Shown: piece by piece, positions 10,359 through 54,140 of the stretch
Layout: every line of letters begins with the position of its first letter
How positions within the stretch are numbered: position 1 is the stretch's first letter
DNA from: Octopus vulgaris
Lineage: Eukaryota
NCBI GenBank assembly: GCA_951406725.2
Contig: OX597830.1
Span: 46,066,001 to 46,130,000 of the forward strand
Length of the DNA: 64,000 bases
Direction: 5' to 3'
Translations under genes and position numbers: made by a program
The notes under the pieces: model-generated
Database searches by the model: none
The model's input: only the letters and a program-made list of their open reading frames with translations
Told to the model about the DNA's origin: nothing

Positions 10359-10519
10359 CTGTAATAAAATCATTTATAGGAATCTATCGATTAGATAATT
10401 GATTGTTAAAAATGGCATCAATATAACCAAATGTAGAATATTTCAATGGTTGGTTGTTTATAAGAGATTATGGTCAAAGCTAAGAATGCAAAATAAAATT
10501 TGAAATCTCAATGTACTCA

Positions 10520-11036
10520 GTGAAGCAACAGTGACTATTAATAGAAGAGTGTTTGTTCTCTCCAAATTCTGTCATCTCAAACAGGGTATGGACACATTGA
10601 TACTTCGACGTCTGGCAGCTGACTTGGCAGACACCCATAAAATTATCAACCATCATACAAACAATAACTCTCAGCACCTTTTCAAACTCCACCCATCTAA
10701 CACCCGTGGACATATTTACAAAGTCAGAAAACAGCACAGCTCCCATGACTTCAGGGAACATTTTTTCACGCTGAGAGTTGCTGAAGCATGGAACAAACTG
10801 CTGGCATCAGTTGTTAGTTGTCGGAGCACTGCATCCTTCAAAACTTCCATACTTTCTGAGATTCGCCAACACTACACCTGATTTTCTCCCCTCCATACAC
10901 ACACAGGCATGTATCTGACTCATACATTGTTCGCTTTTCAGACACTTTTACATTACTGCATGTACTTTATATGCACTTTCTGACAAGTTGTGGTGCACCT
11001 GAGCACTGTATACAATAATTTCATTATTATTATTAT
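10520..11036 (+). mobile_element. CR1/L2-type LINE 3' end
   Basis: ORF ending TRGH...FFTLRVAEAWNKL, then a 3' UTR and (ATT)n tail; an antisense copy lies at 31070-31305. Confidence 0.75.
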
Positions 11037-13329: not shown

Positions 13330-13790
13330 TGTCCAGTGGACAGTTTCTGTTATCTAGGTAAGTGAATTAGCAACGGGGGTCGATGCTCTGAAAGTATTGT
13401 TTCTAGAATACAAATAGGATGGAGACAGTTCAGGGAGCTACTGCTTCAGTTGACAAGAGAGAAATGAAGGGAATATATTCTGCTGGATGTGCAGAGTCAA
13501 TGTGCATGAATAACAAAGTGCAAATGCATTGAGAGAAAAGTTGGGCATAAGAGAAATCAAATGCAGCATGCAAGTGAGAAGACTACATTGGTTTGGAGAT
13601 GTGATGCGTATGAATGAGGACAGCAGTATAAAGAAGTGCTGGTCACTGAAAGTGGATGGTACCTGTGGAAGAGGGAGACCCAGGAAGACATGGGATGAAG
13701 TGGTGAGGACTGATCTCGGAATGTTGGGACTCACAGAGGAAACGACACTGGACTGAAATGTCTGGTGACATGAGCTTCTGGAGAAGACCC
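13330..13790 (+). mobile_element. RTE-clade LINE ORF C-terminal fragment
   Basis: RRLHWFGDVMRM...GRGRPRKTW motif. Confidence 0.75.
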
Positions 13791-21675: not shown

Positions 21676-23684
21676 TTTTGAAAAGATAGTAGGATCACTA
21701 GTTAGCCATCACTATCAAAGAAATGATTCATGAAAATAAAGCTCTGAGAATTAATTCTTTTAAGAATATTACAAGATTGAAGCAAAATACAGTTTTATGA
21801 TGTTTCAACTGTTAGAGATGGAATGGGTGGTAAGCAGTCTGCAAAAAGACAGCATAATGATTCCACTTGTCCAAGTTTAGTCCACTGAAGTTAGAGCCAT
21901 GGGTCACTGAATAATTGGAGGATTAGCACAAATTAGGGCATCCAGCCATTTAAAAAAAAAATCTGAAAGCTGCTTGATAATGTGAACATTAGAAGACAAG
22001 AATTTATTAAATAAATATTTTATTAAATAAATCTTTTGAAGGAAAGACAAAAAAAGAATATATTTAAAGAATCTGAAAACTCTGAGGGTTATTAAGAATT
22101 TTATGATGTAGAAGGGTTGCTGAGTTAGCAATGCATACTGAATGCACCAGCTTCATGGTGTTACATAGAGAGAATACAACTTCAGTGTTAATTTAATGAA
22201 AGAAATCAAGTGAGTCTTAAAACCCCCAGGGTCCACTGACACTACTTGAAGATGTCTCCTTATAAACCCCAGGGTCTACTGGCATCACTTGAAGGGGTCT
22301 CAGATAAACCAGTTCAGTGAAACGAATTTCTTTTGAAAGTTGTTCAAGACAGGATTTGAACTTTGTACAAGTTCATGGATTGTTACTTAATTATAGTGTG
22401 AAGGCATATGGCTTAGTGGTTAGGGAAATTCGGCTCACAATTGTAAGGTCATGAGTTCAATTCCTGGCAGTGCACCATGTCCTTGAGCGAGACACTTTAT
22501 TTCATGTTACTTCAGTCTACTTAGCTGACAAAAAAGAACCGTACCCATATTTCAAAGGACCGTTCTGTGTCGTGCTGAATCTCTCTAAGAACTATGTTGT
22601 GGTAGACGTGTCTGTGAAGTACTCAGCCACTTGCACATTAATTTCATGTGCAGCCTGTTCCATTGATCAGATCAGCTGGAATTCCCGTCATCATAAGCTG
22701 CAGAGTGCTAGAAACTTAATTATAGTATTGCTACATACTTTGTGCTTCCTAAGTATTTGGGGTCTAAGTAGAAAGAAAGAGCAGTTCCGGTGATGTAATA
22801 CAATCCATCACAAAGACACTGCTGGCTTTGCAGAGAGGGATGCAACAAATGGTGACCTTATAGAAGGTAAGAGAATGGTGGCCTGGGCCAGTGTGGGATC
22901 TTCCAACAATTGAGAATAGCGTTCACTGAGAAGAAATACATTATTTCCTCAGATTTGAAGTTGATGTCTCATGAAAAGACATCAGAGACCATCGAGCAAC
23001 TATAATGATACTACTTTTTAAAATATGCACAAGGCCTGGAATTTGGAGGAAGAGTACAGTAAATGAAATCAATCCTATTTCTTGATTGGCATTTATCAAC
23101 TCTGAAAGGATAAAGGACAAAGTCAACCCAAGCAGGAATTAAACTCAAAACATAAAGGAATTGGAACTAAGAACAGATGCCATACATTCTGTCTGCTCTG
23201 CCATGCAGAGCACAAAATATAAGAACTGATGTTGCTAACATGGTTAAAACAACCATGTGACCTAAACTGACTAATGGAACCCTAAATACACTCACCTGGA
23301 AGCCATTTAAATTTTTTTTTAAATTCTTTTTACTCTGACTTCAAACAGCTGGCGATTTTTTTTTACCTGTTCTATGACTGTTAAACTGTTATCAATATAT
23401 AATTCCAACTGAATGCTCCTTTCTTTCATTTGTTAATTTATATATACACACACACATACATCATACACACTCACACACAGATATATGTATATATGCACAC
23501 ATACTCACACACAGATATATATATGTATATATATATATATATATATAGTCACAATGAGGATATTTGAACCACTTACAGGGATATTTTTTATCCAAGATAC
23601 ACTGGTTTAATATATTATATTTTGAAGAGATATTTCTTCAATGAATGTATTGCATAAAATATCATAAAATATCAAACATTATTA

Positions 23685-24076: not shown

Positions 24077-27000
24077 ATATCACACAGGCATTTGAAATCT
24101 AATTTATATAAAACAAAACTTCAAGTCGGTTCTTATTCAGAGTTGGTAAGCTTTTTGATGGATGGCAGAGCAATGTAGACGTGAGCCATTGTAGCCAATC
24201 AGCTTAGAAAGGCAGTGACAATGTATAAGAACTGATTTGGCCTGGGATAATCCCTCCAGCCCTTTAAGCATGGAACTGCGGACATAAGATGATGGTGATG
24301 ATGATGATGATGATGACAAGCTACTAATCAAAGCACCGTACGACAGTTGTTCATTCATTTTCAACAATAACAGCAAGACAATTTACAGTGAGAAGCTCAT
24401 TTGAACTGAGTTGGTTAGCCATGAGGAAGAGGGGAAAGTACCGAATGTTTCCCGCTCCCCTTGTCAAGCAGTGATCGTTTATATTCACTAATCACCAACA
24501 TATGACCATAATTAGTTTCTGTGAATCCAACTGTTTATTTTGAAGTTAGACTTCTATAATAATGTTATAAATGCTATTAACATTCCGCATGCTGTAGGGG
24601 ATTATTAAATCAACCCCAGTATTTAACTGGTACTTTATTTTAACAAAGTGAGGTAGATAAAATGTCAAGTTGAAAATTAGAACAAGAAGGGGCTATAATG
24701 AAACACAGCAAAGCATTTTGTCTGATTCCTTAATGATTCTACCAATCATCTGCCTAAATGATTGCTGATCAATTGTTCTGGAACAGTCAAAAGCTCCTGC
24801 CTGGGGCAGTACAATAACTTTACACACATACACACACACATTGCTTAACGATCACCAAATGTCATAATTAATTAAAAAAGGAATAACTGATCAAAGCCAA
24901 CATCAAAATGGTTAGTATTCGTATTTTTTTCCAAAGAAAAAAAGACACAACTAAAAGCCACCTCAAAATGTTTTTAGGAAAAAAATCCTATTAAGTTTAA
25001 CAACAAAGAATATTGTCAATTGTCATTGAAAAGCAAACTGTCTTTCCTTAAAGACCCTAGAAAACAGGTAAATCAGTGGCTCTTGGAATTATTTATTTTC
25101 TTGTCCTGGAAACTTGGTCACTGAAACACTAACAGACATTATTGTCCTTCACTCATTCATCTCTCCTAATTTTCATCTGAAGTTCATCTCTCCTAATATC
25201 ACAGCTGCATTATTTGTAAAACCTCCATCCCCCCACTCCAACTCACCATAGTATTTTCTCTCACCCTATTCCTTCCTTGCAATAAGGTTTACTCCACAGC
25301 TCAATAATACCTCAGGATTCTGGCTTTTAGAGTGTTTCGGTACAATGGTAACACGAAGATATGCCGTATGAACAGAACGAACGTTTGTGGTGCTGCAACT
25401 ACGATTGCCAAATGTTTATTTCTGCTACAGCGTCATCACACATGTCCAAAAGTGTAATTTCTGTTTGGTTTTTACCGTAGCAGCATTTTGTTAGCTATTG
25501 TGTGATGACTGTTTCACTGTAGGTCTCTCCATGTCCTCAGTATATTACATGACTGCTAAGGTCTAAATACTATGTGTATAGATATCACATGACTGTTTAG
25601 GTGTGTATGTCATGGATAGATAACATGTGATGGGTATATTCTATTCTGATGTATATGTTCTGTTGGTATCAGTGATTTACATGTATTTATATGTATTGCA
25701 TTTGGTGATGTTAAAAAAATTGATGTGGAAGTTTAATGCATTCATCCTTAGTAAAGTTGTCCATTATATGTCAGTCATATTGTCATTAGCGCTGAGCTGT
25801 GCCAGGTACTGGATCCCTTATTTCTTTTAGTATAATTTGAGCAAATATTTGTTTCAGAGTGTTTGTTTGTGTTTACTGAATATGCTAAATGTTTAGAATG
25901 AAACAATGTCAGTGCTTTTACAATACTTTGTATGTACAACTTATTTGCTTTGAATGAAATGTGGACATTTGTATCTAGGTTTTAATTGTTAGAGTAATTA
26001 GTCTGGTATGGTCGTGTACTTATAGATGGATGAGGAGAGCTGTGTGAAGAAGTGCCACTCCCAAACAGTTGAAGGAATCTGGGGTAGAGGTAGACCCAGG
26101 AAGACATGGGATGAGGTGGTGAAGGATGACCTTCGTTGTTACCACTTACATACAATGTCCACAACTCGTCAGTGTGATCATCATAGCAAAGTATTTTGCT
26201 ATGACGATCACACTGACATTCCTTTCTTAGTGGTAAGACCATAGAGGGTCGACTTCTAGCATAATGGATGTCCACTTAGTGGTCATCCTCCTGTATGTGT
26301 GCAATATAACTTTTCTGATTCTTCAGATTTTTCTATATGCTAGACTACTGGTTTTAAATTGATATTAATCAAATTAATATTCAATTTTGCACCCTTCTTA
26401 TTTTAAATTTATATATATATATATATCAGTATAATGTTTTATGTCTCCTCCATATTTGTTGAAGATGTGTTTGTGTGTTTATTTTACTCAAGTGATATTG
26501 TGGCCAAGCTGTAGCTTTGTATATATATTACAGAAATGTGTTTTTTATAACAATGTTCTTTTAGGACTGTGATGCATGTCCTAGTGTTAGTTATGTTCAA
26601 AGTAAGACTACTTCCTGTGTATCCAGCATGGTTAAATGATGTTGCATCATATGATATTATTTTATATTTATCAATACCTCTGAAACACGTTCTATTCTTA
26701 GCAGCAGGTTCGTTTGCTAACAAAGACATCCAAGCAGCTCACATCCACCTGTAAATGGCTCCCAGTCTCCAAGCACACTAAAACATCATCACTCTTCAAT
26801 AGAAGACTGTTACTGGGAGAGTAATCAACCTAAGTATTATCGTTAATGTTTGTTATAATAAGGGAATGATATGTGGATTAATAGAAATTAATAAAGTTTT
26901 AGAGTTCAAAAATAGAAATGCGAATATCAGATTAATTTACATTTTGTTAAAATTCTAATCAGGTTTTAGATCCTTTGATTAGATTTAGCCAAAGCTTTTT

Positions 27001-34122: not shown

Positions 34123-34284
34123 CTGGTAATTAAAGTAAAGAAATGATTATATTTTGCTCTTGTTATTCTCTTACCTATTAATTACCCACCTACTATCCTA
34201 TCAACACAGCTTCCCAACCAGAGTCTGTCTCTCTTCCATCATCGTATCTCTATTATGCGTGACCTAATTACATCCTCAATATTG

Positions 34285-34318
<34 letters not shown>

Positions 34319-35157
34319 ATCTCCCATTACTCCCTCCCAACACTACCCATCATTCTTACCATCAGCCATCTTCACTGCTCTCTAACACTTTCTTTCTCAT
34401 GTTATTTTCTCCCCTAATATTAATTCTTGACATCCTTCACTCTCTTTTCTCCAATCACACAGTTTCTGCTGTTCCTACTGAACTTCCTTACCAAAAATCG
34501 TCGCTTTCTTTCTTCTTTTACTCTCCCCTCAATCACCCACTCCCTCCCATCACTATGGCTCTCTTCCATTAAGTTCTTCTCTATCATCCCTTTTGTTTTG
34601 GCCCTCTTTCAGTACTCTTCTACTTGCCAGGGATGAGACAACCCTTTGGAACTGGTAAACAAGCAAATGAAGATCCAAAGTAAAGAGGACACTTTAGTCT
34701 TGCTGCAATGAATGCAGCCAGAGCACAAAATGGTGCCTCGTGAACACAGATAACTAGGGACCTAGGGTAGAAAGAACTGTTCAATCTTCCAGGGAACAAA
34801 GCAACCTTTCTCTTCAGTGCTGGCATCATGATAAAATGAACCCAATTCACTCTGTAAAGTAGTTGGCAAATGAACAGAGACAACGAAAAGCAGAGGGAGG
34901 ACATGATAACCTCTCTAATAATGGCATTGGCGACTGACAATAAGAAGGCCGTGTATGTAGAAAAGAGGGGAAAGGTTCCCAGTTGTAAAAACAACAATTA
35001 CTTCAACAAATAAACTTCCCATCATTTTTGAAAGATGTAAAAACTTGTATATAGCTTCTAAACCATATTAAAACATTAGTGTTTTATTTTTGAATATTTC
35101 AAAATTGCTACAGCATATTCAGCAAACAGTTTAAAGTAAAATGAAATTGTAACTCAC

Positions 35158-35231
35158 CGCCCAAAAAAACTGTCATGGACAGGATATATAGAACTGAATG
35201 CAAGGTCAATCATTCCTTTTGGCTTTGATCT
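35158..35231 (-). CDS. RASA1: Exon 11, PH (RSKPKGMIDLAFSSIYPVHDSFFGR)
   Basis: ttcag| acceptor, |gtgagt donor; KPKGxIDL motif. Confidence 0.95.
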
Positions 35232-36857
35232 CTGAAAACAGAAACAAATTATAATTTTAAAAGTTACCAAACTATTTATGGCTGCATCGCAAATTAAAAT
35301 TAAAAATAGTTCTTTGCAAAATTAAACTGAAATCTGAAACAAGTTTCTTCATTATCAAATCACTTGTAAAGTAATCACAACTGCAGCCAGTCAATTAAAT
35401 ACATTTCCTATCATACACTTTTACTCAGACACTTATTTCTAAAAATAATTTGGTCTTTTAGAGTCTTCTTTTATTTATTTTTCTAGTAATATGATTTTTT
35501 TTTTCAACTGAACAATTTCAAAACAAAAGCAACAATGAAAAAATACATCATCTACAATGGTAGGGAAACGGAAAACAAGTTACTAATGCAGAGAGTAACA
35601 AACTGGTTAGAATGCTCTTTTTGGTGTAGTTCTACTCCTTTAAAGAACATGTGCCATGCATGCAGGGCAACATCAGTAATAAATTTAGTGGTTGCAAATG
35701 AAGTCAATAGGTGTAGAACTGTTATATTTGATTCCCAGAAACCAGCCCATGCTTCATTTAAAATAAAAGTTTGTGACTATTAATAACTGGTGTTTTTCGT
35801 TATTAAGATACTTGTGGATAGGCAAAGTTGTAATGTACCGCCTTAGACTGCAAAATGGACAGAGATTTATGAAACATCTAACCACAATAGAATCATTCAG
35901 GATTCCATCCAACTATTCATTTCCACCATCCACAAGCACCTTCCCAGAAACAGCTGTCATTACATTTGGCTCAGCTTGAAGAATTTGTTTTGTGATTCTT
36001 TCTGGTGATATTTTAACCACATATCCATTGTAATGGAGCTGTGACCTGTCAATGCAGAGATATAGCAGTTCAGCCTGGAGAGACTCTTTGGTCCCCCAAG
36101 CTATGCACCCTGCCATGCAGCTGCATCTTAACCGTTTGTATGCATGATTGTACACTTTCAGGCATTACCCAACATTCATGCAGAAGAGAGGATAGGCATG
36201 GAAACCAAATTCATGATAGCAAGTTTGGCATTTTTACCAACCTCTTCCCTTCTGAGAATCGAATGCTGAAGCTGTGCCAGCATCTGCAATTCTACATCCA
36301 ATTCATCTTTCTTCTTCTCATCACTTGTGAATACAACCCCAACACACTTGAACTTTTCCATTATTTTATTTAAAAATTTGAAACATGACACATGAAAACT
36401 TCTGAAGAAATGATTATAATGCATTCAAATATCCATGCACCTACATGGACCTATGTGCAAAAGCACACATAAATATGTTTCCAGAGGCAACTAAACTGAT
36501 AACTTTTTTAAACACTAATTCTAACAATAAGGTATCATATATATTTCTTTACTGCCCACAAGGGGCTAAACATAGACAAAGACAGACAAAGGGATTGAGT
36601 CGATTATATCACCCCCAGTGCGAAACTGGTACTTTATTTATCGACCCCGAAAGGATGAAAGGCAAAGTCGACCTCGGCGGAATTTGAACTCAGAATGTAA
36701 CAACAGACGAAATACCGCTAAGCATTTCACCCGGTGCGCTAACGTGTCTGCCAGCTCGCAGCCTAAGGTATCATATACAAGACATACAGTATAAACAGTT
36801 TAATGTTATAAACAGTAAGAAGAGAATAATAAAAAAAAAAAATTCAAAATATCCTAC

Positions 36858-36940
36858 CCTTTCATTTTCAAAATAACGCAGCTGCCGTTCAGTGCCATTC
36901 AAAATAAAGTACATGTTTTTCCATTTTTTAGTCTTTTGTC
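36858..36940 (-). CDS. RASA1: Exon 10, PH (QKTKKWKNMYFILNGTERQLRYFENER)
   Basis: gtag| acceptor, |gtagga donor. Confidence 0.93.
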
Positions 36941-37107
36941 CTACAATTAAAAATAATTTTAAAACTGCTTATTTCACTTAAAAGCTCGTTTTTAATGACA
37001 TAAAATTATTTTTTTCATAATCGAATCACGAGTGAAAAACAAACCCTCTTCACAATTTTTAGAAACTTAAAGACAACAAGAACTTGATTATATTCTGCAA
37101 TACTTAC

Positions 37108-37246
37108 GTTTTTTAAGATAACCCGTGATATCAATTCTGTCCCACTGCTTCTTAAGTAAGTTAGCCCCAGTACCTCGTTTTAAAGAAGCATATAATTCCT
37201 TGGTTTTGGCAGAATCAAGGCTTGGACCACTTCCATTGAGCACATC
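37108..37246 (-). CDS. RASA1: Exon 9, linker and start of PH (DVLNGSG...KELYASLKR...GYLKK)
   Basis: gtag| acceptor, |gtaagt donor; GYL motif of PH beta1. Confidence 0.88.
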
Positions 37247-38515
37247 CTACAAAGCAGAAAATAATCTTTTACCAATTTCTGAATCATGTAAATGCCATGA
37301 AAAAAAATTTACATTTACCACAACAATAATCCTTGAATGTTACAAAACTATCATATATCTTACACTTGTTAAGAGGAGAGCAAAAAGATTGACATGCAAT
37401 TCTGTACATGTCAATATAAAACAGAATAAGGAGAGATAAGAGAGTGTGATTGGTTGTTATGCTAGTTTTTGTGGTAAGCCTAACACAACAACCTGGCCCT
37501 TTAACAGGGTTCACTCCGTTGCAAGCAGTCAAACTATATCTTAGTTCCATTCCACTGCAAATATTCAGAGGTTGAGCAATAGCAACATAAATCTCAACAG
37601 GCTGATAATAGACATTAACCTATCACCAATTTATCAGCAACTACCAACTTCCTTTGATTTCTTTTAAGTTCCAGAGATCATGCATCTCTAATTTGCAAAA
37701 AATACTGCAGACATAGATACAGAGGACTCTCCTGAAGCCTAACAACAAATCAGAACTATATCTTGTCACCATACCAATGAAATTCTTAAGTTATTTCCAA
37801 AAACAAAGAAAATAATGACATCTCCTCCAGTTCAGTAAACAGGCAAATATATGAACCAAAGAAATAAAATATTGAAATGTTCTCATTTGATTCATTGTCA
37901 CACTGTGTAGTTACAACTCACTCAGATCAAAGGTCATGACCTTCACAACTCTTTATGAAGTTATTTGAAACAGATATCTCAATAAATCAATCAATAAGTG
38001 AGTACTGAAGGGTGTGTTGGGAATATATAGCATTCATTATCTATTTGAGTCAGTTCCATAGTGTACTGTCCAATAAACTGAGCCTTTTGTAGTCTTCACA
38101 ATGGACATAAGTTTTTCATTACAGACAAACCTTCCTCAACACAAACTCATAACAGAATAGAGATATTATCCGGCAATTAAAAAGGAATTCATATATGACA
38201 GTGTCAATTATTTAATGAGCTTCTTAAGTCATTAAAATCTCAATCGTTTGTCATAGTTTCATAATATTCTCACTATCTCTAGGAGCCATAATCTAGACTG
38301 GCTGTTCAACAACATTCGGCAAAACAGTCAACATCATGATAAAACGATGGAAAATTTTTAAATAGTTTTAAATTCATTCTGTATAAAAAAAAGACTTTTT
38401 AATTTACCAAAAACATTGGTAAACAAATAGGAAAAAGAAAATTTTGAGACAGATGCTTACATGTACCAATATCTCATTTAAATGAAACACCAAAGTAAAT
38501 TTTAAGTAAACTTAC

Positions 38516-38594
38516 CTTTCTCATTACTGCTTTCTTTAATGTTTGACCTTCAACAATTTCTTCACGTGTATATCGTTGAATTATAGCATGTAGA
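38516..38594 (-). CDS. RASA1: Exon 8 (LHAIIQRYTREEIVEGQTLKKAVMRK)
   Basis: gcag| acceptor, |gtaagt donor; end of C-SH2. Confidence 0.93.
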
Positions 38595-38641
38595 CTGCAC
38601 AATTAAACAAAAAATCATATTAATAATGTGCAATATGTGTA

Positions 38642-38713
<72 letters not shown>

Positions 38714-41207
38714 CATACATACAAAGCCAGTGAACAGCAATGATGATACCGGTATGACTTTGAATCACTTTAACAATTCAAAATAATGAATTTAATTCCT
38801 CTTAATTCTACCTCAGTTCATCTAACTGTATTTATTTATCGCTTCTTTTCATAAAAAAGCCTTTATTTTTTTGATATTCAATGTGCATTTTCACATTTTT
38901 TTCTTCTTACTTTCCCCATGTATATATATATATATATACACACATACACTTAATAATATACATGCTCAAAGCTTCAGAGATATATACATTAAACATGTTT
39001 TGTGAAACTTGTTCCAAGAATCTTAGATTAATCTAAATCAGAGAATAAATAGACAAACATGCAAAAATACTATTACTGTAAGTCGTAACAATAACCAAAG
39101 ACACTGAACTAGTAGTGCAAAGGGCACATAAAAGAACAGCCAACAGTAAATACTATAACCAATTTTGGAAAGGCAGCCAATGATGTTAAACCAAAAAGCT
39201 GGCTTTGCAGAAGTGAGCTGCCAAGCATTGAAAAATGGAAAACATTTCCAAATGGAAAAGAAATGAGAAGGAGAAAGAGTCTCCTGGAGTTAGGTCAAAC
39301 GTAGAAATAACAGAACTTGAATAATTGTATTTTAATGACAACACACATGACATTTAAGTAAATTAAGGGATTATTTTGAGCCAAACCACAAAATATTGTA
39401 CTATACTTCTTCAACAAGATAAAAAGGGCTGTACTCTTCAAAAAAGTACATTTATTATACTACCTGACTCAGTCTATAGAGCTGTAAAAAAAAAAGCTTA
39501 CACACCCACTTAAAATTAAAATCAGTATCCAAAATCAAAATATGTCAGGGTATAAAATGACAAAGTAAATGAACCGTTCTCAACAGGTTCTCAAAGATAA
39601 TCCATCATAAATTTGATAAATGAAGTCATTAATTTAATTAATAGTAAAGCACAAAATATTTTGTGATAGAGGTATGATACATTATTTTTAATTAAACTTC
39701 ATTGATTTATCTTTCATTGTTTAATATGAAGAAAGAACAAAACAGAGACAGCCAAATTGTAAGCAATATACCAGATCTTGACAAGAGTCAATAATGATGG
39801 TAGAACTAAAATATGAAAATCACAACCATCCTATTTGTGAACAGCTTACAACTTTACAAATGCTTGGTTTCTAATGACCTTACATGACAATCACAGATTT
39901 ATAAGAGAGTTCAAACAGCATTTCAAATAATAAGCCCTTTCTTCAAGACAAAAAAAATACTAAACTATTGCTGAGCCCCAAATCAGTCAACTGGTTTACA
40001 CATAATTGTGCTGAAGGTGTTCTGGCAAAATGCAGCTTTAGCCAACACCAGAGCATCTACCAGGTTATTATTCTGACGGGGGAAGATGTTTTGATTCATT
40101 GTACAGCTCTTAATTTATCCCACCCTTCTAACCAGCAGTTAATCCTTTTGGTTCTCTGCCAACAAATACATCCATCAATCCTGCAGAATCCACAACCAAC
40201 TGCCACTTACAACAGAGACTAACACACTGTCTCTTCTCATTGCTTCTTCAACCATTGCAGCAACACAACGCTATTTCTTTTAGCTACAATATAAACTATA
40301 AAATCTGGAAATACAAGGATAACTGCTCCTCTCATTTTTCTTTTCAGTTAGAAACAGTTTTTATATTTCAGTTATTTTTCTCTAGAGAATATATTCTACT
40401 ATAAGTGATGTAAACAGTATTCAGAATTTATGTTCCATAATTCCTTTTCTAATAAGAGTAACTAGTAACATTTCACTCAACTGAACATATCATCATCATC
40501 GTTTAACGTCTGTTTTCCATGCTAGCATGGGTTAGACGGTTCGACCGGGGTCTAGGAAGCCAGGAGGCTGTACCAGGCTCCAGTCTGATCTGGCAGTGTT
40601 TCTACAGCTTGATGCCCTTCCTAATGCCAACCACTCTGGGTGTAGTGGGTGCTTTTTACTTGCCACCGGCACAGAGGCCAGAGGAGGTTGGCGAATGGCC
40701 ACGATCAGTTGGTGCTTTTTATGTGTCACCGACACGGACGCCAGTCAGGTAGCGCTGGCATCAGCCACGTTCAGACGGTGCTTTTTACATGTCACCAGCA
40801 CGGGTAGCATAACTACAATTTCCATTTGATTTTTTATTTTGATATTGGTGTTGACATGCTTGACTCAATAGGTCTCCTCAAGAACAGTTATATATAATAT
40901 AACAAATGAATACATCCAGCTTGCATTACTTTGATGATAGAGAGGATAGGAAGGATGTCCAGTCATACAAAAACAAAAAAAAAAGAGATAACATTGCCCA
41001 ACCACACAAATACCAAAATCACGAACGCTTCAAGCACGATGAGTTGAAACATGTGAAACCCATACCAATAAGCAAAGACTGGTATAATAAAATCAGTAAG
41101 AATCACTCAACTCCAGTTATTCTGCAGAAACCCAGCCATTCGTTTAGCTGTACAAACAAATATCTATAGACCTTAGTGCCCCTATATGTTCTATCATTTA
41201 CAAACTA

Positions 41208-41518
41208 CATTATTTACATTATTTACATTTGATGGATATTTGTCCTCATCTTGTTTGTTGTTAACACAACGTTTCAGCTGATATACCCTCCAGCCTTCAT
41301 CGGGTGTCTTGGGGAAATTTCAAACCTGCGTTCTCATTCCTAAGATATTTTTCGATACTACTACTACTGCTGCTGCTGTTGTTGTTGTTGTTCAGGTCAC
41401 TGCCTAGAATTGAACTCGAAATCTTGGGGTTAGTAGCCCGCACTCTTAACCACTATGCCATATGCCCATCAAATGTAAATAATGTACATAATTCCTCATC
41501 TCATAGATACAGAACTGT
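41208..41518 (-). mobile_element. tRNA-SINE with hammerhead-bearing Penelope-like tail and inverted 3' piece
   Basis: A/B-box tRNA head at 41395-41467, (AAC/AGC/AGT)n spacer, hammerhead-like motif at 41264-41307, inverted terminal segment at 41467-41518, 12-bp direct repeat ATTTACAAACTA on both sides. Confidence 0.75.
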
Positions 41519-41598
41519 ATTTACAAACTAGTAAAACTGCATAATTTAATATTACGTAACTAAAACAAGAATATTTATTATAAGCAAACACCTCTGAC

Positions 41599-41743
41599 CT
41601 GTCAAAATATCTACCACCAATGAAAAGTTGTCGGCCTTGTTTTTCAATTCTGAACCGAATCACAGTTTTATCATGAAGGAAAAAGAGAGAATAATCTCCT
41701 GGATAGTGTTCACTTGGACGCACAAGGAAACTACCATTTCCCG
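41599..41743 (-). CDS. RASA1: Exon 7, C-SH2 (GNGSFLVRPSEHYPGDYSLFF...GGRYFD)
   Basis: ccag| acceptor, |gtcaga donor; FLVR motif. Confidence 0.94.
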
Positions 41744-42940: not shown

Positions 42941-43953
42941 CTAAAAAAAGTAGAAAATTATACGAAATGTGAGATGAGAAATCAAGTGGAAGATGTGTGA
43001 AATGTTGAACTTTTCTATCATCATCATCATCATCATTTAACGTCCGTTTCCCGTGCTGGTATAGGTTGGACGGTTTGACTGGGATCTGGGAAGCCAGGAG
43101 GCTGCACCAGGCTCCAGTCTGATCTGGCAGTGTTTCTATATCTGGATGCCCTTCCTAATGCCAACCACTCCGTGAGTGTAGTGGGTGCTATTTACATGCC
43201 ACCGGCACGGTGGTGTTAAAGTCAGAATGTAGTCCTGTAGTACTTGTCTTATCCTCTCTCAACAGTTAGTGTATTGAATATTGTCATAGATTTATCACAT
43301 AATGCCTTTTTATAGGATATTACATTAGTGTAGAAAAAGAAATATCCACAAAGTGAAATAGATGAAGACATTTAAATCATCATCATCATCGTTTAACGTC
43401 CGTTTTCCATGTTGGCATGGGTTGGACGATTCGACTGGGGTCTATCTTCTTAATAGGAGTCAATTAACTTAACTAATGAAATAATGATGTAACAAAATTA
43501 GTCTTCACATCAGCATCTGTGACCAACATGAATAACCCTACAAATACATCGTATCATTTAGTATTATCAATCATCCTCTGTTTTCCATGCTGGCATGGGT
43601 TAGATGGTTTGAGAGGGACTGGCAAGGCTGGAGGGCTGCACCAGGCTCCTGTTGTCTATGGTTGAATGTCCTTCCTAATGCCAACCACTTCACAAAGTGT
43701 ATTGAGTGCTTTTCACATAGTGCCAGCATGGATGCTTTTTAATGAAAATCAACAGAGAACCTTTACATACGTTAAATAGAATAGAAATCTTTTACACAAA
43801 ACAACATTTGAATTTTTCACGGCACACAACCCACCATTAAATTGGATGTAACAGCAAATCTGAATATTCAGATATTCTTCAAGTAAATAGTCCATAATTT
43901 CAAAATTGAAATGATACCCATTTCAATGCCAGGTAGACTAAAACAAGTAGTGT

Positions 43954-44415
43954 CATTATTTACATTTGACAGATATTTGTCCTCATCTTGTTTGTTGTTA
44001 ACACAACGTTGCAGCTGATATACCCTCCGGCCTCTTCAGGTGTCTTGGGGAAATTTTGAACCTGGGTCCTCATTCCTAAGGTATTTTTCAATGTTATTAT
44101 TATTGTTGTTGTTGTTGTTGTTGTTCAGGTCACTGCCTGGAATTGAACTCGGAATCTTGGGATTAGTAGCCTGCGCTACTAACCCCAAGATTCCAAGTTC
44201 GATTCCAGGCAGTGACCTGAATGATGATGATGATGATGACAACAACAACATTGAAAAATACCTTAGGAATGAGAATCCAGGTTCGATATTTCCCCAAGAC
44301 ACCTGATGGAGGGTATATCAGCCGAAACGTTGTGTTAACAACAAACAATTTGAGGACAAATATCTGTCAAATGTAAATAATGTACATAATTCCTCATGTC
44401 TTAAATATAGAACTG
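43954..44415. mobile_element. Head-to-head fold-back insertion of the same SINE/PLE-like family
   Basis: Arms at 43954-44170 and 44175-44382, 4-nt spacer, 33-nt extra tail, 9-bp TSD AAGTAGTGT (43945-43953 and 44416-44424). Confidence 0.8.
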
Positions 44416-44907
44416 AAGTAGTGTAATTAAACGTTACTTCTGGTCAAGACACTCTTTATTGTGCTGGTGCCATAAAAAAATGTACCAGGTAGACTCTGTA
44501 AAGAGGTTAAGGTTAAGAGCACCCAGCTATAGAAACCAAATCAAATTTGAGACAATGACATCAATTTATATAAAGGAAAAAAAAATTAAGAATCTAATTT
44601 AATGAAATATTAAATGTAAATGACAATAAGAATATTTGTTTAATTTTCAACTATAAAATAATAAAAGGAAATTTGTTGGTCTCTAAAAGTATAAATGGCT
44701 TTAATTATTATTTGAAGGATAAAATCTAACAATGAAGGGAGTTAAAATTTTAACAATAATTTTCTACATGTAATCTAAAAATCAGATTTGCTTAAATTTT
44801 TTCAAATTTTTGAGTGAAAAGTTTATGAAATTTTGACTAACAAAAGCCGTTTCAAAATCTTTCTGTAGAAAATTCAATGGAATTTAAAAAACAAAAAAGA
44901 AACTTAC

Positions 44908-45022: not shown

Positions 45023-45452
45023 CTGAATCCATGAAAAAATTAAAAATAAAAAAGAAAACTCCAATTATTTCTTCAATGTTCAAAAACAACAGCAAATAGC
45101 AATTAAAGCTATTGGGATTTGTAAGAAATTATTAATGTAAACTAGTATGTTATATTAGAAGCTTCTTGCAACAGAATATAGTTCTCAAGACATTTCTTAT
45201 TCAATCTGACCAATTCAAAAGAGGAGTAGTCTTTCTCTCATCAGAAATTTCAGATGAAAATTCATATTCACTCTACTTTATACATACATACTATATACAT
45301 ACACATTAACGAGTGACAGTGATTTTGCTGTTTTGAAAAAGTCGCATTTGTCAGGCAACCTGAGAAAAGTCACTAAGCTAAAACTTCAAAGTTACTATCA
45401 ACCTTTTCCTTTTACATAACGATATTGAGTGATTCTTCAATTAATGCTTGAC

Positions 45453-53589: not shown

Positions 53590-54140
53590 TGAGAGATACG
53601 ACTGTGCTGATATGGTCATGTGGTGAGAATGGATAAGGATAGCTGTGTGAAAAAGTGCCACACCCTAGAGGTTGAGGGAACCTGTAGAAGCGGTAGACCC
53701 AGGAAGACCTGGGATGAGATGATGAAGCATGACCTTCAAACATTAGGCCTCACCGACGCAATGACTAGTGACCGAGACCTTTGGAAATATGCTGTGCTTG
53801 AGAAGACCCGGCAAGCCAAGTGAGACCATAATCTTGTGGCCTATGCCAGGGGTGTAACTAGCCCACTTATGCGTACCTTTCCTTCATTGGACACTAAACT
53901 CTGCTTGCGAAGACCTGTTGAGGCAAGTGAAATCAAAATCAAATTCGATGACTGGCATCCGTTTTAGTGGAGCACTAAGAGTACCATCTGATCATGATCG
54001 TTGCCAGAGTGGCTAACTGGCTTCTGTGCTGGTGGCACATAAAAAGCACCACTCAAGCCTGATCATTACCAGTGTCACTTTTCTGGCACATGTGCTGGTG
54101 ACACGTGAAAAAACATTTGAGCAAGGTCGTTGCCAGTGTT
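53590..54140 (+). mobile_element. RTE-clade LINE 3' end with 3' UTR
   Basis: LRWYGHVVRM-like sequence followed by GRPRKTWDE. Related fragments lie at 25990-26135, 29640-29890, 11100-11830 (-) and 31480-31860 (-). Confidence 0.75.

What the first reader, a model, noticed from the sequence alone, without database searches (positions are those of the whole stretch)
41208..41518. tRNA-SINE fused to a hammerhead-ribozyme, Penelope-like tail
Seen (minus strand): a Pol III-type tRNA head (TGGCATAGTGG...GAGTTCAATTC), a trinucleotide spacer, then ACAC-CCGAUGA-A-GGCUG(GAGGGUAUAU)CAGCU-GAAA-CGUU-GUGU. The three copies here (41264-41307, 44001-44043, 44299-44335) each carry a different lesion, and their consensus is an intact minimal type-I hammerhead. 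That consensus has CUGAUGA/GAAA, stem I ACAC/GUGU and a palindromic ACGU stem III. An inverted 3' piece is appended, and a perfect 12-bp TSD flanks the unit. Known: minimal, dimer-forming hammerheads and inverted 3' copies are hallmarks of Penelope-like elements. Inference: this is a SINE mobilised by PLE machinery rather than by a LINE, which is unusual. This copy is sense to the RasGAP pre-mRNA, about 80 nt into intron 7.
Basis: partly seen in the sequence, partly recalled or inferred. Interest (0 to 1): 0.8.

Follow-up and report, generated by a model that had tools for sequence, protein, structure and literature searches.

The report
tRNA-headed Penelope-type ribozyme retroelement in octopus
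A very abundant short jumping repeat in an octopus genome joins a predicted tRNA-type promoter to a hammerhead self-cutting RNA motif (cutting untested), and its insertions carry the two-ended signature of Penelope-like retrotransposons, whose enzyme likely copies it, a pairing I could not find described for tRNA-headed repeats.

Summary
Real. The unit (41208-41518) is one of two insertions of a high-copy octopus repeat: tRNA-type A/B boxes, a microsatellite, a minimal type I hammerhead and a Penelope-type 3' end. Majority letters in three DNA runs restore the hammerhead core, which 0 of 20,000 shuffles match. Both insertions are head-to-head arm pairs inside 12- and 9-bp target duplications, with a 33-nt tail on one arm only: the signature called unique to Penelope-like elements (PLEs; PMC11167929). 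PLE-type insertion is therefore very likely (about 0.9). Open: whether copies come from a protein-less, Pol III-read mini-element (my reading, 0.55) or are truncated ends of a coding PLE with a tRNA-headed repeat (0.3). I found no partner protein. Some copies run on upstream of the tRNA start, probably into another unit's tail. Precedents: Schistosoma SMalpha (Pol III promoter plus hammerhead), PLE-linked retrozymes, and tRNA-headed LTR minis (Helenus). Cleavage and transcription are untested; this intronic copy has two ribozyme lesions. This scan noted the same kind of element before on other DNA of this genome (e1-8669850, e1-8663237, e1-8663524). New variant of a known kind.

The parts
41196..41207 (+). 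Target-site duplication, left copy (12 bp, 2 nt of it also element-like)
41208..41467 (-). Main arm of insertion 1: tRNA head, microsatellite, hammerhead, tail-less 3' end
41208..41216 (-). Extra 9-nt unit at the tail-less end, absent from the tail-bearing arm of the same insertion
   Evidence: population loose ends 9 nt apart at 41206 and 41215
41263..41308 (-). Minimal type I hammerhead; private lesions at 41302 (U4 to C) and 41276 (C11.1 to U); predicted cut after 41268
41356..41392 (-). Trinucleotide microsatellite spacer, variable between arms
41393..41467 (-). tRNA-derived head with A box (41460-41450) and B box (41415-41407); no cloverleaf recognised
   Evidence: negative
41466..41518 (+). 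Inverted, 5'-truncated arm of insertion 1, joined to the tRNA start by 2-3 nt of microhomology
41485..41517 (+). 33-nt PLE-type tail
41519..41530 (+). Target-site duplication, right copy
41599..41743 (-). Host exon (SH2 domain) of the RasGAP gene; the insertion lies 80 nt into the following intron, main arm sense to the gene
43945..43953 (+). Target-site duplication of insertion 2, left copy (9 bp)
43954..44176 (-). Tail-less arm of insertion 2, truncated inside the tRNA head; hammerhead 44044-44000 with A13 to C and no bulged A
44175..44415 (+). Tail-bearing arm of insertion 2; hammerhead 44298-44336 with a 7-nt deletion; tail 44383-44415
44416..44424 (+). Target-site duplication of insertion 2, right copy

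Best explanation
This is a short, high-copy octopus retroelement made of a tRNA-type A/B-box head, a minimal hammerhead motif and a Penelope-type 3' end; it likely encodes no protein, is likely read by RNA polymerase III from tandem source copies, and is likely pasted in by the reverse transcriptase and GIY-YIG nuclease of a Penelope-like element. Inferred cycle: the PLE protein (a predicted dimer in the anole element) binds the RNA 3' of the hammerhead, nicks both DNA strands about 9-12 bp apart, and primes one cDNA at each nick from two internal RNA sites 33 nt apart (51 and 84 nt past the predicted cut). The two cDNAs stop at different lengths and are joined head to head through 2-3 nt of microhomology, giving an inverted pair with a tail on one end only. 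The tail-less start can re-copy a 9-nt unit. The hammerhead probably cuts only as a dimer or with protein help, to process multimeric transcripts, and is probably not needed for insertion. The copy at 41208-41518 carries two ribozyme lesions and is probably inert. Shown: anatomy, family majority letters, end classes, abundance. Inferred: promoter use, the enzyme, cleavage, order of steps.
For: (1) Both insertions have head-to-head arms, a target duplication and a 33-nt tail on one arm only. PMC8557442 lists inverted 5'-truncated copies and a 30-40 bp one-sided tail as PLE features; PMC11167929 shows in vitro that the tail is the stretch between two RT start sites, that both strands are cut and extended, and calls the signature unique to PLEs. 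(2) Genome-wide, contigs leave the element into unrelated flanks at fixed places: tail-less ends at 41215 (156/146/168 contigs in X1/X2/X6) and 41206 (253/290/346), tail ends at 41519-41521 (107-151 per listed row; only the best-supported 24 of 1,122 and 18 of 304 rows were shown). Three further same-strand joints (41237-41473, 41261-41472, 41297-41467), each seen in 3 of 3 DNA runs, fit other head-to-head pairs (15 of 141 joint rows shown). (3) The hammerhead has the PLE minimal design of PMC4209133: bulged base after A9, G10.1-C11.1, palindromic 15.2-16.2. Listed non-CpG variants in it fall at N7 (41299) and in loop II (41287). (4) A/B boxes with no run of four T on the sense strand of any arm (114 of 880 window stretches lack one). 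(5) 34,215-40,865 contigs laid per DNA run; summed depth about 1e5 times single-copy depth over the hammerhead and about half that over the head (order of magnitude only). (6) Of 59 library translations matching the frame across the hammerhead, none but one unrelated repeat exceeds 183 aa, 0 of 20 scanned has an RT or GIY-YIG domain, and family members diverge after the tail. (7) Hints of head-to-tail source copies: letters 21-30 of one loose-end consensus upstream of the tRNA start match the tail in register (8 of 10 against the tail of insertion 2; 0.0012 per site by chance) and one contig matches the tail end at 6 of 7 letters. A sister family with the same hammerhead design and an 11-codon optional tail shows tail-to-hammerhead tandems in 13 of 36 translations.
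Against: No autonomous partner was found; the two O. bimaculoides PLE consensuses in the supplement of PMC8557442 do not carry the element's motifs, and the Hydra-1_Obim hammerhead is different. The sense frame across hammerhead and tail has no stop for 37 codons in this copy and stays in register with the sister family, as expected if it were the start of a PLE ORF, as in the anole element. Copies that run upstream of the tRNA start (95-134 contigs per run) do not fit a plain tRNA-start transcript. The tandem hint rests on noisy consensus strings (agreement 0.44-0.48) from 1 of 4 runs plus one contig. No transcript start, strand or cleavage could be seen: all runs were contigs. The U-A versus C-G pair change between the two families can be plain CpG decay. 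0 of 19 family translations show a tandem hammerhead.
Confidence: 0.55

Rival explanations
1. The unit is the end repeat (pLTR) of a protein-coding Penelope/Poseidon-type element whose repeat begins with a tRNA-derived promoter; the short copies are its 5'-truncated, inverted insertions and no separate mini-element exists.
For: In the anole element the ORF starts in the hammerhead and runs through the tail. Here one sense frame is open across hammerhead and tail and keeps register with the sister family, one codon apart. Contigs continue upstream of the tRNA start with shared letters. A possible splice acceptor lies at the start of stem I, where the D. virilis Penelope intron ends (untested). 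Two earlier AI notes say this (e1-8669850, e1-8663237); they are leads, not evidence.
Against: No library protein continues from that frame into RT or GIY-YIG (weak negatives). Insertion 1 starts exactly at the tRNA start. Summed depth falls steeply at the tRNA start, much as at the true tail end (contig depth is a poor measure). The upstream letters match the element's own tail in two instances. This rival and the best explanation can both hold if a coding parent spawned a deleted mini-element.
Confidence: 0.3
2. It is an animal non-LTR retrozyme with a captured tRNA promoter: hammerhead cleavage of tandem transcripts yields a roughly 300-nt circular RNA that a PLE enzyme copies round the circle.
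For: Head-to-tail hints; tandems in the sister family (13 of 36); retrozyme models in PMC7229834 and bioRxiv 10.64898/2026.07.22.740005; the SMalpha scheme in PMC6765202.
Against: Both local insertions are less than one unit per arm and inverted, not tandem; the hammerhead is the minimal PLE type, which cleaves poorly in vitro; in the anole element cleavage is not needed for insertion.
Confidence: 0.1
3. An ordinary LINE-mobilised tRNA-SINE; the inversions come from twin priming and the hammerhead is a passenger.
For: tRNA head, target duplications, and RTE- and CR1-like LINE remnants in the window (13514-13756, 10504-10881; identified from recall, no Pfam hit).
Against: No poly(A) or simple-repeat 3' end; two fixed ends 33 nt apart with the tail on one arm only in 2 of 2 insertions and genome-wide; both arms keep their own 3' ends, which twin priming of one RNA does not give (established knowledge).
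Confidence: 0.05

Closest known systems
pLTR and minimal hammerhead of EN+ Penelope-like elements, e.g. Poseidon_Ac (PMC11167929, parts 1-2 of 4 read; PMC4209133, parts 1-2 of 4 read; PMC8557442, passages and supplement searches)
   Same: Minimal type I hammerhead with bulge, G10.1-C11.1 and palindromic loop 3; optional 30-40 nt tail; inverted 5'-truncated arm; AT-rich targets.
   Different: A tRNA-derived A/B-box head in front of the hammerhead; no RT/GIY-YIG ORF found; about 300 nt.
Schistosoma SMalpha / Sjalpha SINE-like elements (review passages in PMC6765202 and PMC8490949; original papers not seen)
   Same: Pol III promoter followed by a type I hammerhead in a short repeat.
   Different: Those carry canonical hammerheads and are described as tandem repeats; no PLE tail or head-to-head insertion structure is mentioned in the passages read.
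Animal non-LTR retrozymes (PMC7229834, passages; bioRxiv 10.64898/2026.07.22.740005, part 1 of 5 and passages)
   Same: Protein-less hammerhead repeats of about 300 nt proposed to use PLE enzymes.
   Different: Defined as tandem repeats; 'tRNA' as promoter is not part of their description (0 occurrences of 'tRNA' or 'promoter' in the preprint); here copies are dispersed inverted pairs.
Helenus / Cassandra / Ajax (TRIMp3; PMC10886601, passages)
   Same: Small-RNA-derived Pol III promoter inside the terminal repeat of a non-autonomous retroelement that is not LINE-dependent.
   Different: Those are LTR-type with PBS and PPT; that paper does not mention Penelope (0 occurrences). This element would be the PLE counterpart.
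Octopus OK, OR1 and OR2 SINEs (Ohshima and Okada 1994; not held, seen only as citations)
   Same: tRNA-derived, same genus.
   Different: OR1 and OR2 are cited as CORE-SINEs (PMC4824008, PMC4758252); here the head runs straight into a microsatellite. Sequences could not be compared, so identity with OK or with a library entry is not excluded.

Membership tests
Minimal type I hammerhead (PLE type) | CUGANGA and GAAA cores with U-H site between stems I and II | tested here: met
   Majority letters give a perfect match; 0 of 20,000 shuffles. Each local arm has a lesion.
Minimal type I hammerhead (PLE type) | Bulged base after A9, G10.1-C11.1 pair, palindromic 15.2-16.2 | tested here: met
   against PMC4209133
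Minimal type I hammerhead (PLE type) | Compensatory changes in the stems | tested here: inconclusive
   U-A in 6 of 6 family motifs versus mostly C-G-derived states in 44 sister-family motifs; both changes are CpG transitions
Minimal type I hammerhead (PLE type) | Self-cleavage as dimer or with protein | not testable with these tools
   Dimer and monomer folding energies do not discriminate (-22.3 versus -24.0 kcal/mol)
Penelope-like element (EN+) | 30-40 nt tail on one end of the insertion | tested here: met
   33 nt in 2 of 2 insertions; both end classes genome-wide
Penelope-like element (EN+) | Inverted 5'-truncated copy at the 5' end or partial tandem | tested here: met
   2 of 2 insertions inverted; further joints
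Penelope-like element (EN+) | ORF with telomerase-like RT and GIY-YIG nuclease | tested here: inconclusive
tRNA-derived SINE | A and B boxes at tRNA spacing at the 5' end, 100-700 bp | tested here: met
   41460 and 41415, 45 nt apart; no tRNA fold
tRNA-derived SINE | Pol III transcription from the head | not testable with these tools
   Only contigs available; no T4 run on the sense strand
tRNA-derived SINE | LINE-type 3' end (poly(A), simple repeat or LINE-shared tail) | tested here: not met
   Two fixed ends 33 nt apart, no poly(A)
Non-LTR retrozyme | Tandem repeats of two or more hammerhead units | tested here: inconclusive
   Not met locally; weak head-to-tail hints; met by the sister family
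Non-LTR retrozyme | Circular RNA monomers | not testable with these tools
   No raw reads were offered
Octopus OK/OR1/OR2 SINEs | Sequence identity to the published consensus; CORE domain for OR1/OR2 | not testable with these tools
   Paper and databases not held; supplement searches found nothing (one file not searched)

The most novel reading that the evidence does not exclude
A third route for small-RNA-promoter parasites: a tRNA-headed, Pol III-read mini-element of order 1e5 copies that is retrotransposed entirely by Penelope-like (telomerase-related) machinery, with two-site priming and telomerase-like re-copying of a 9-nt unit at the tail-less start. It would be the PLE counterpart of SINEs (LINE-driven) and Helenus/Cassandra (LTR-driven), and would mean that part of what is annotated as octopus SINE is PLE-driven.
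Probability: 0.4. Interest if true: 0.72.

Novelty: new variant of a known kind. Interest (0 to 1): 0.55.

Why it matters
SINEs are taken to depend on LINEs, and non-autonomous PLE passengers in animals have been proposed but not demonstrated by insertion structure. A 300-nt element with tens of thousands of copies, each recording two priming sites, a truncation point and a target duplication, is a large natural data set for the unresolved steps of PLE integration (how inverted arms form, what the hammerhead is for) and a compact substrate for the existing in vitro PLE assay. It also bears on octopus annotation, where SINEs make up 11.6% of the genome and 893 of 900 recently active SINE families are unclassified (PMC13282606). 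For the host gene the copy is probably neutral.

Tried and rejected
Rfam at E up to 1 over the window and E up to 10 over 41240-41480: no hammerhead or tRNA hit, only microsatellite-driven miRNA matches. ARAGORN: none. Folding z-scores: not significant. Descriptor scan of the window: 2 sites at 1 mismatch (41303 and a probable chance site at 45244), 0 perfect; it misses both arms of insertion 2 because of their lesions. Pattern scans of metagenome, viral and prokaryote collections: 0 matches in 5 scans, as expected for an octopus repeat. No whole genome was held, so no copy census, consensus or flank extension was possible. Partner searches: hammerhead-frame peptide against longer proteins, none; representatives, 59 short spurious translations; Atlas, no usable hit; upstream part of sister-family translation P0051, 1 candidate and none at E up to 10. 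Hydra-1_Obim and Naiad_Obim rejected as partners on motif searches and the listed hammerhead. RNA runs X15 (a guess, 3,466 contigs) and X20 (on record as RNA, 141 contigs, head letters partly different) hold the repeat but cannot show strand, start or transcription; not used as evidence. Dimer energy test uninformative. Sorting of the 59 translations was by regular expression (36 sister, 22 family, 1 unrelated); three (P0030, P0042, P0051) were moved to the sister family by eye, giving 39 and 19. Positions within about 30 nt of a stretch end or of the masked microsatellite are not listed by read laying, so 41320-41350 was not polled. The idea that this copy cuts the RasGAP pre-mRNA was rejected: U4-to-C and a G-U at 10.1-11.1 in this arm, A13-to-C in the only other sense arm, and the family majority is intact at those places. 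Lunse et al. 2017 was not held. Supplements that could not be seen (SINEBase, one MetaSINE file, bioRxiv supplements, the O. vulgaris repeat library, Repbase/Dfam) may already list this family.

Full report
Setting. The window is octopus DNA: one exon is 100% identical over 57 aa to the Octopus bimaculoides RasGAP entry in UniRef, and that protein maps exon by exon on the minus strand. The finding lies 80 nt into the intron after the seventh exon seen, an SH2 exon. No whole genome was held, so family-level evidence comes from contigs of public runs and from spurious translations in protein libraries.

Observation. Confirmed with corrections. There are two insertions, not three copies. Insertion 1 (41208-41518) has a main arm on the minus strand that starts at the first base of a tRNA-like head, and a 53-nt inverted arm at its head side; a 12-bp direct repeat flanks it. 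Insertion 2 (43954-44415) has two arms, both cut inside the tRNA head, joined head to head through 2 nt, inside a 9-bp repeat. Of 3,000 random window pairs none shares 12 bp and 5 share 9 bp. In both insertions one arm ends 51 nt past the predicted hammerhead cut (60 nt in insertion 1, where a 9-nt unit is repeated) and the other runs 33 nt further. The arms are 91-93% identical to each other between microsatellite and tail-less end.

The hammerhead. Rfam, ARAGORN and folding z-scores see nothing. A descriptor (cores, stems I and II of 4 bp or more) finds 41303 with one core mismatch and one other site in 128 kb of both strands. In run X1, 96% of summed depth has U4 and 75% has C11.1; X2 and X6 agree. 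With those two letters the match is perfect, and 0 of 20,000 dinucleotide shuffles match; the real copy, at one mismatch with a palindromic loop 3, is matched by 0 of 3,000. The design is that of PLE minimal hammerheads: bulged base after A9, G10.1-C11.1, palindromic 15.2-16.2 (PMC4209133, parts 1-2 of 4 read). Variants listed at 10% or more are CpG changes, N7 and one loop II base. Covariation is not established: the U-A versus C-G difference from a sister family could be CpG decay. Cleavage is untested; such motifs cut weakly and only as dimers, or only with the PLE protein.

The family. 34,215-40,865 contigs were laid on the 411 bases in each of three DNA runs; summed depth is about 1e5 times the single-copy depth over the hammerhead and about half that over the head (the tool warns that this is no copy number). 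It is present in runs labelled organisms A, C and E. Contigs leave the element into unrelated flanks at 41215 and 41206 (tail-less, with one or two 9-nt units) and at 41519-41521 (tail end); only the best-supported rows were shown (24 of 1,122; 18 of 304). The doubled form outnumbers the single form in all three DNA runs. In insertion 1 only the tail-less arm is doubled, while both arms share a diagnostic letter, which suggests that the doubling arose during insertion (one case; inference). Library translations give a second sample: 19 belong to this family (5 reach into the tail, 9 show the repeated unit by pattern), 39 to a sister family of unshown host with the same hammerhead design and an optional 11-codon tail, in which 13 of the 36 sorted by pattern show tail-to-hammerhead tandems.

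What it is. A one-sided 30-40 bp tail and an inverted 5'-truncated copy are listed PLE features (PMC8557442, passages). For the anole Poseidon element, the protein cuts and extends both strands, reverse transcription starts at two internal RNA sites, the tail is the stretch between them, and the signature is called unique to PLEs (PMC11167929, parts 1-2 of 4). The octopus insertions fit this in every point I could check, so I put PLE-type integration at about 0.9. A LINE partner is unlikely: there is no poly(A) or simple-repeat end.

What is open. Is the template a protein-less unit or the end repeat of a coding element? For the first: A and B boxes at tRNA spacing, one of 2 such pairs in the window, and no T4 run; insertion 1 begins at the tRNA start; no protein continues from the hammerhead frame into RT or GIY-YIG (weak negatives). 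For the second: that frame is open across hammerhead and tail and in register with the sister family, as in the anole element, and 95-134 contigs in each of four DNA runs continue upstream of the tRNA start with a shared leader. In two instances the upstream letters match the element's own tail in register, which points to head-to-tail source copies, but this rests on a noisy consensus. An earlier AI note (e1-8669850) made me test the coding-element reading; I could not confirm it. The two readings are compatible if a coding parent spawned a deleted mini-element, as e1-8663237 suggests. I give 0.55 to the mini-element, 0.3 to truncated ends only, 0.1 to a circular-RNA retrozyme and 0.05 to a LINE partner.

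Comparison with what is known. Pol III promoter plus hammerhead: Schistosoma SMalpha and Sjalpha (review passages, PMC6765202; PMC8490949). PLE-linked protein-less elements: MRC1 and animal retrozymes (PMC7229834 passages; bioRxiv 10.64898/2026.07.22.740005 part 1 of 5 and passages). tRNA promoter inside a terminal repeat: Helenus (PMC10886601 passages). Octopus SINEs OR1 and OR2 are cited as CORE-SINEs (passages of PMC4824008 and PMC4758252); the 1994 paper, Repbase, Dfam and SINEBase were not available. The O. vulgaris repeat paper does not mention ribozymes (PMC13282606 passages and supplement search); the giant squid paper only counts 235 hammerhead hits (PMC6962438 passage). PMC4918200 and PMC3531059 were seen as passages and added nothing. 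Ten searches showed no paper on a tRNA-headed element with PLE insertion structure, judged from listings and the passages named; subscription papers and repeat libraries are outside these searches. A likeness of the head to tRNA-Arg is recalled, not tested.

Verdict. Real, high-copy, PLE-integrated, tRNA-headed, with an intact hammerhead in the family majority and a damaged one in this copy. Each ingredient has a precedent; the combination was not found in print, and the scan had noted it before in this genome. New variant of a known kind; interest 0.55.

Noticed in passing
library proteins P0004, P0006-P0008, P0052 and others: A sister repeat family of unshown host with the same hammerhead design and an optional 11-codon tail forms head-to-tail tandems of about 129 nt that restart at hammerhead stem I (13 of 36 translations).
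   Followed up: partly
window 41206-41217: Tail-less ends come with one or two copies of a 9-nt unit, the doubled form being commoner in three DNA runs; possibly telomerase-like re-copying at the priming site.
   Followed up: partly
window 43954-44415: The two arms (93% identical) would form a long double-stranded hairpin of about 220 bp in the RasGAP pre-mRNA, a likely A-to-I editing substrate in an octopus.
   Followed up: no
P0022 (XP_052825882.1): An O. bimaculoides dystrobrevin beta isoform model takes its N-terminus from this element (head joined to hammerhead); exonisation or annotation artefact.
   Followed up: no
window 41308-41318 (minus): A possible splice acceptor sits at the start of hammerhead stem I, where the D. 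virilis Penelope intron ends; a high-depth joint at 41308 appears.
   Followed up: no
window 22403-22540 (plus): A second tRNA-headed SINE with a related head (A box 22409, B box 22455) but a different body and no hammerhead.
   Followed up: partly
window 43029-43170, 43385-43474, 43563-43689: Three copies of another short repeat family beside (ATC)n runs.
   Followed up: no
window 10504-10881, 13514-13756, 26026-26244, 53611-53823: Open frames that look like LINE 3' remnants (CR1-like and RTE-like, from recall; no Pfam hit for the two scanned).
   Followed up: no
window 45244 (minus): A second one-mismatch hammerhead descriptor hit (GAAT in place of GAAA, no palindrome); probably chance.
   Followed up: no
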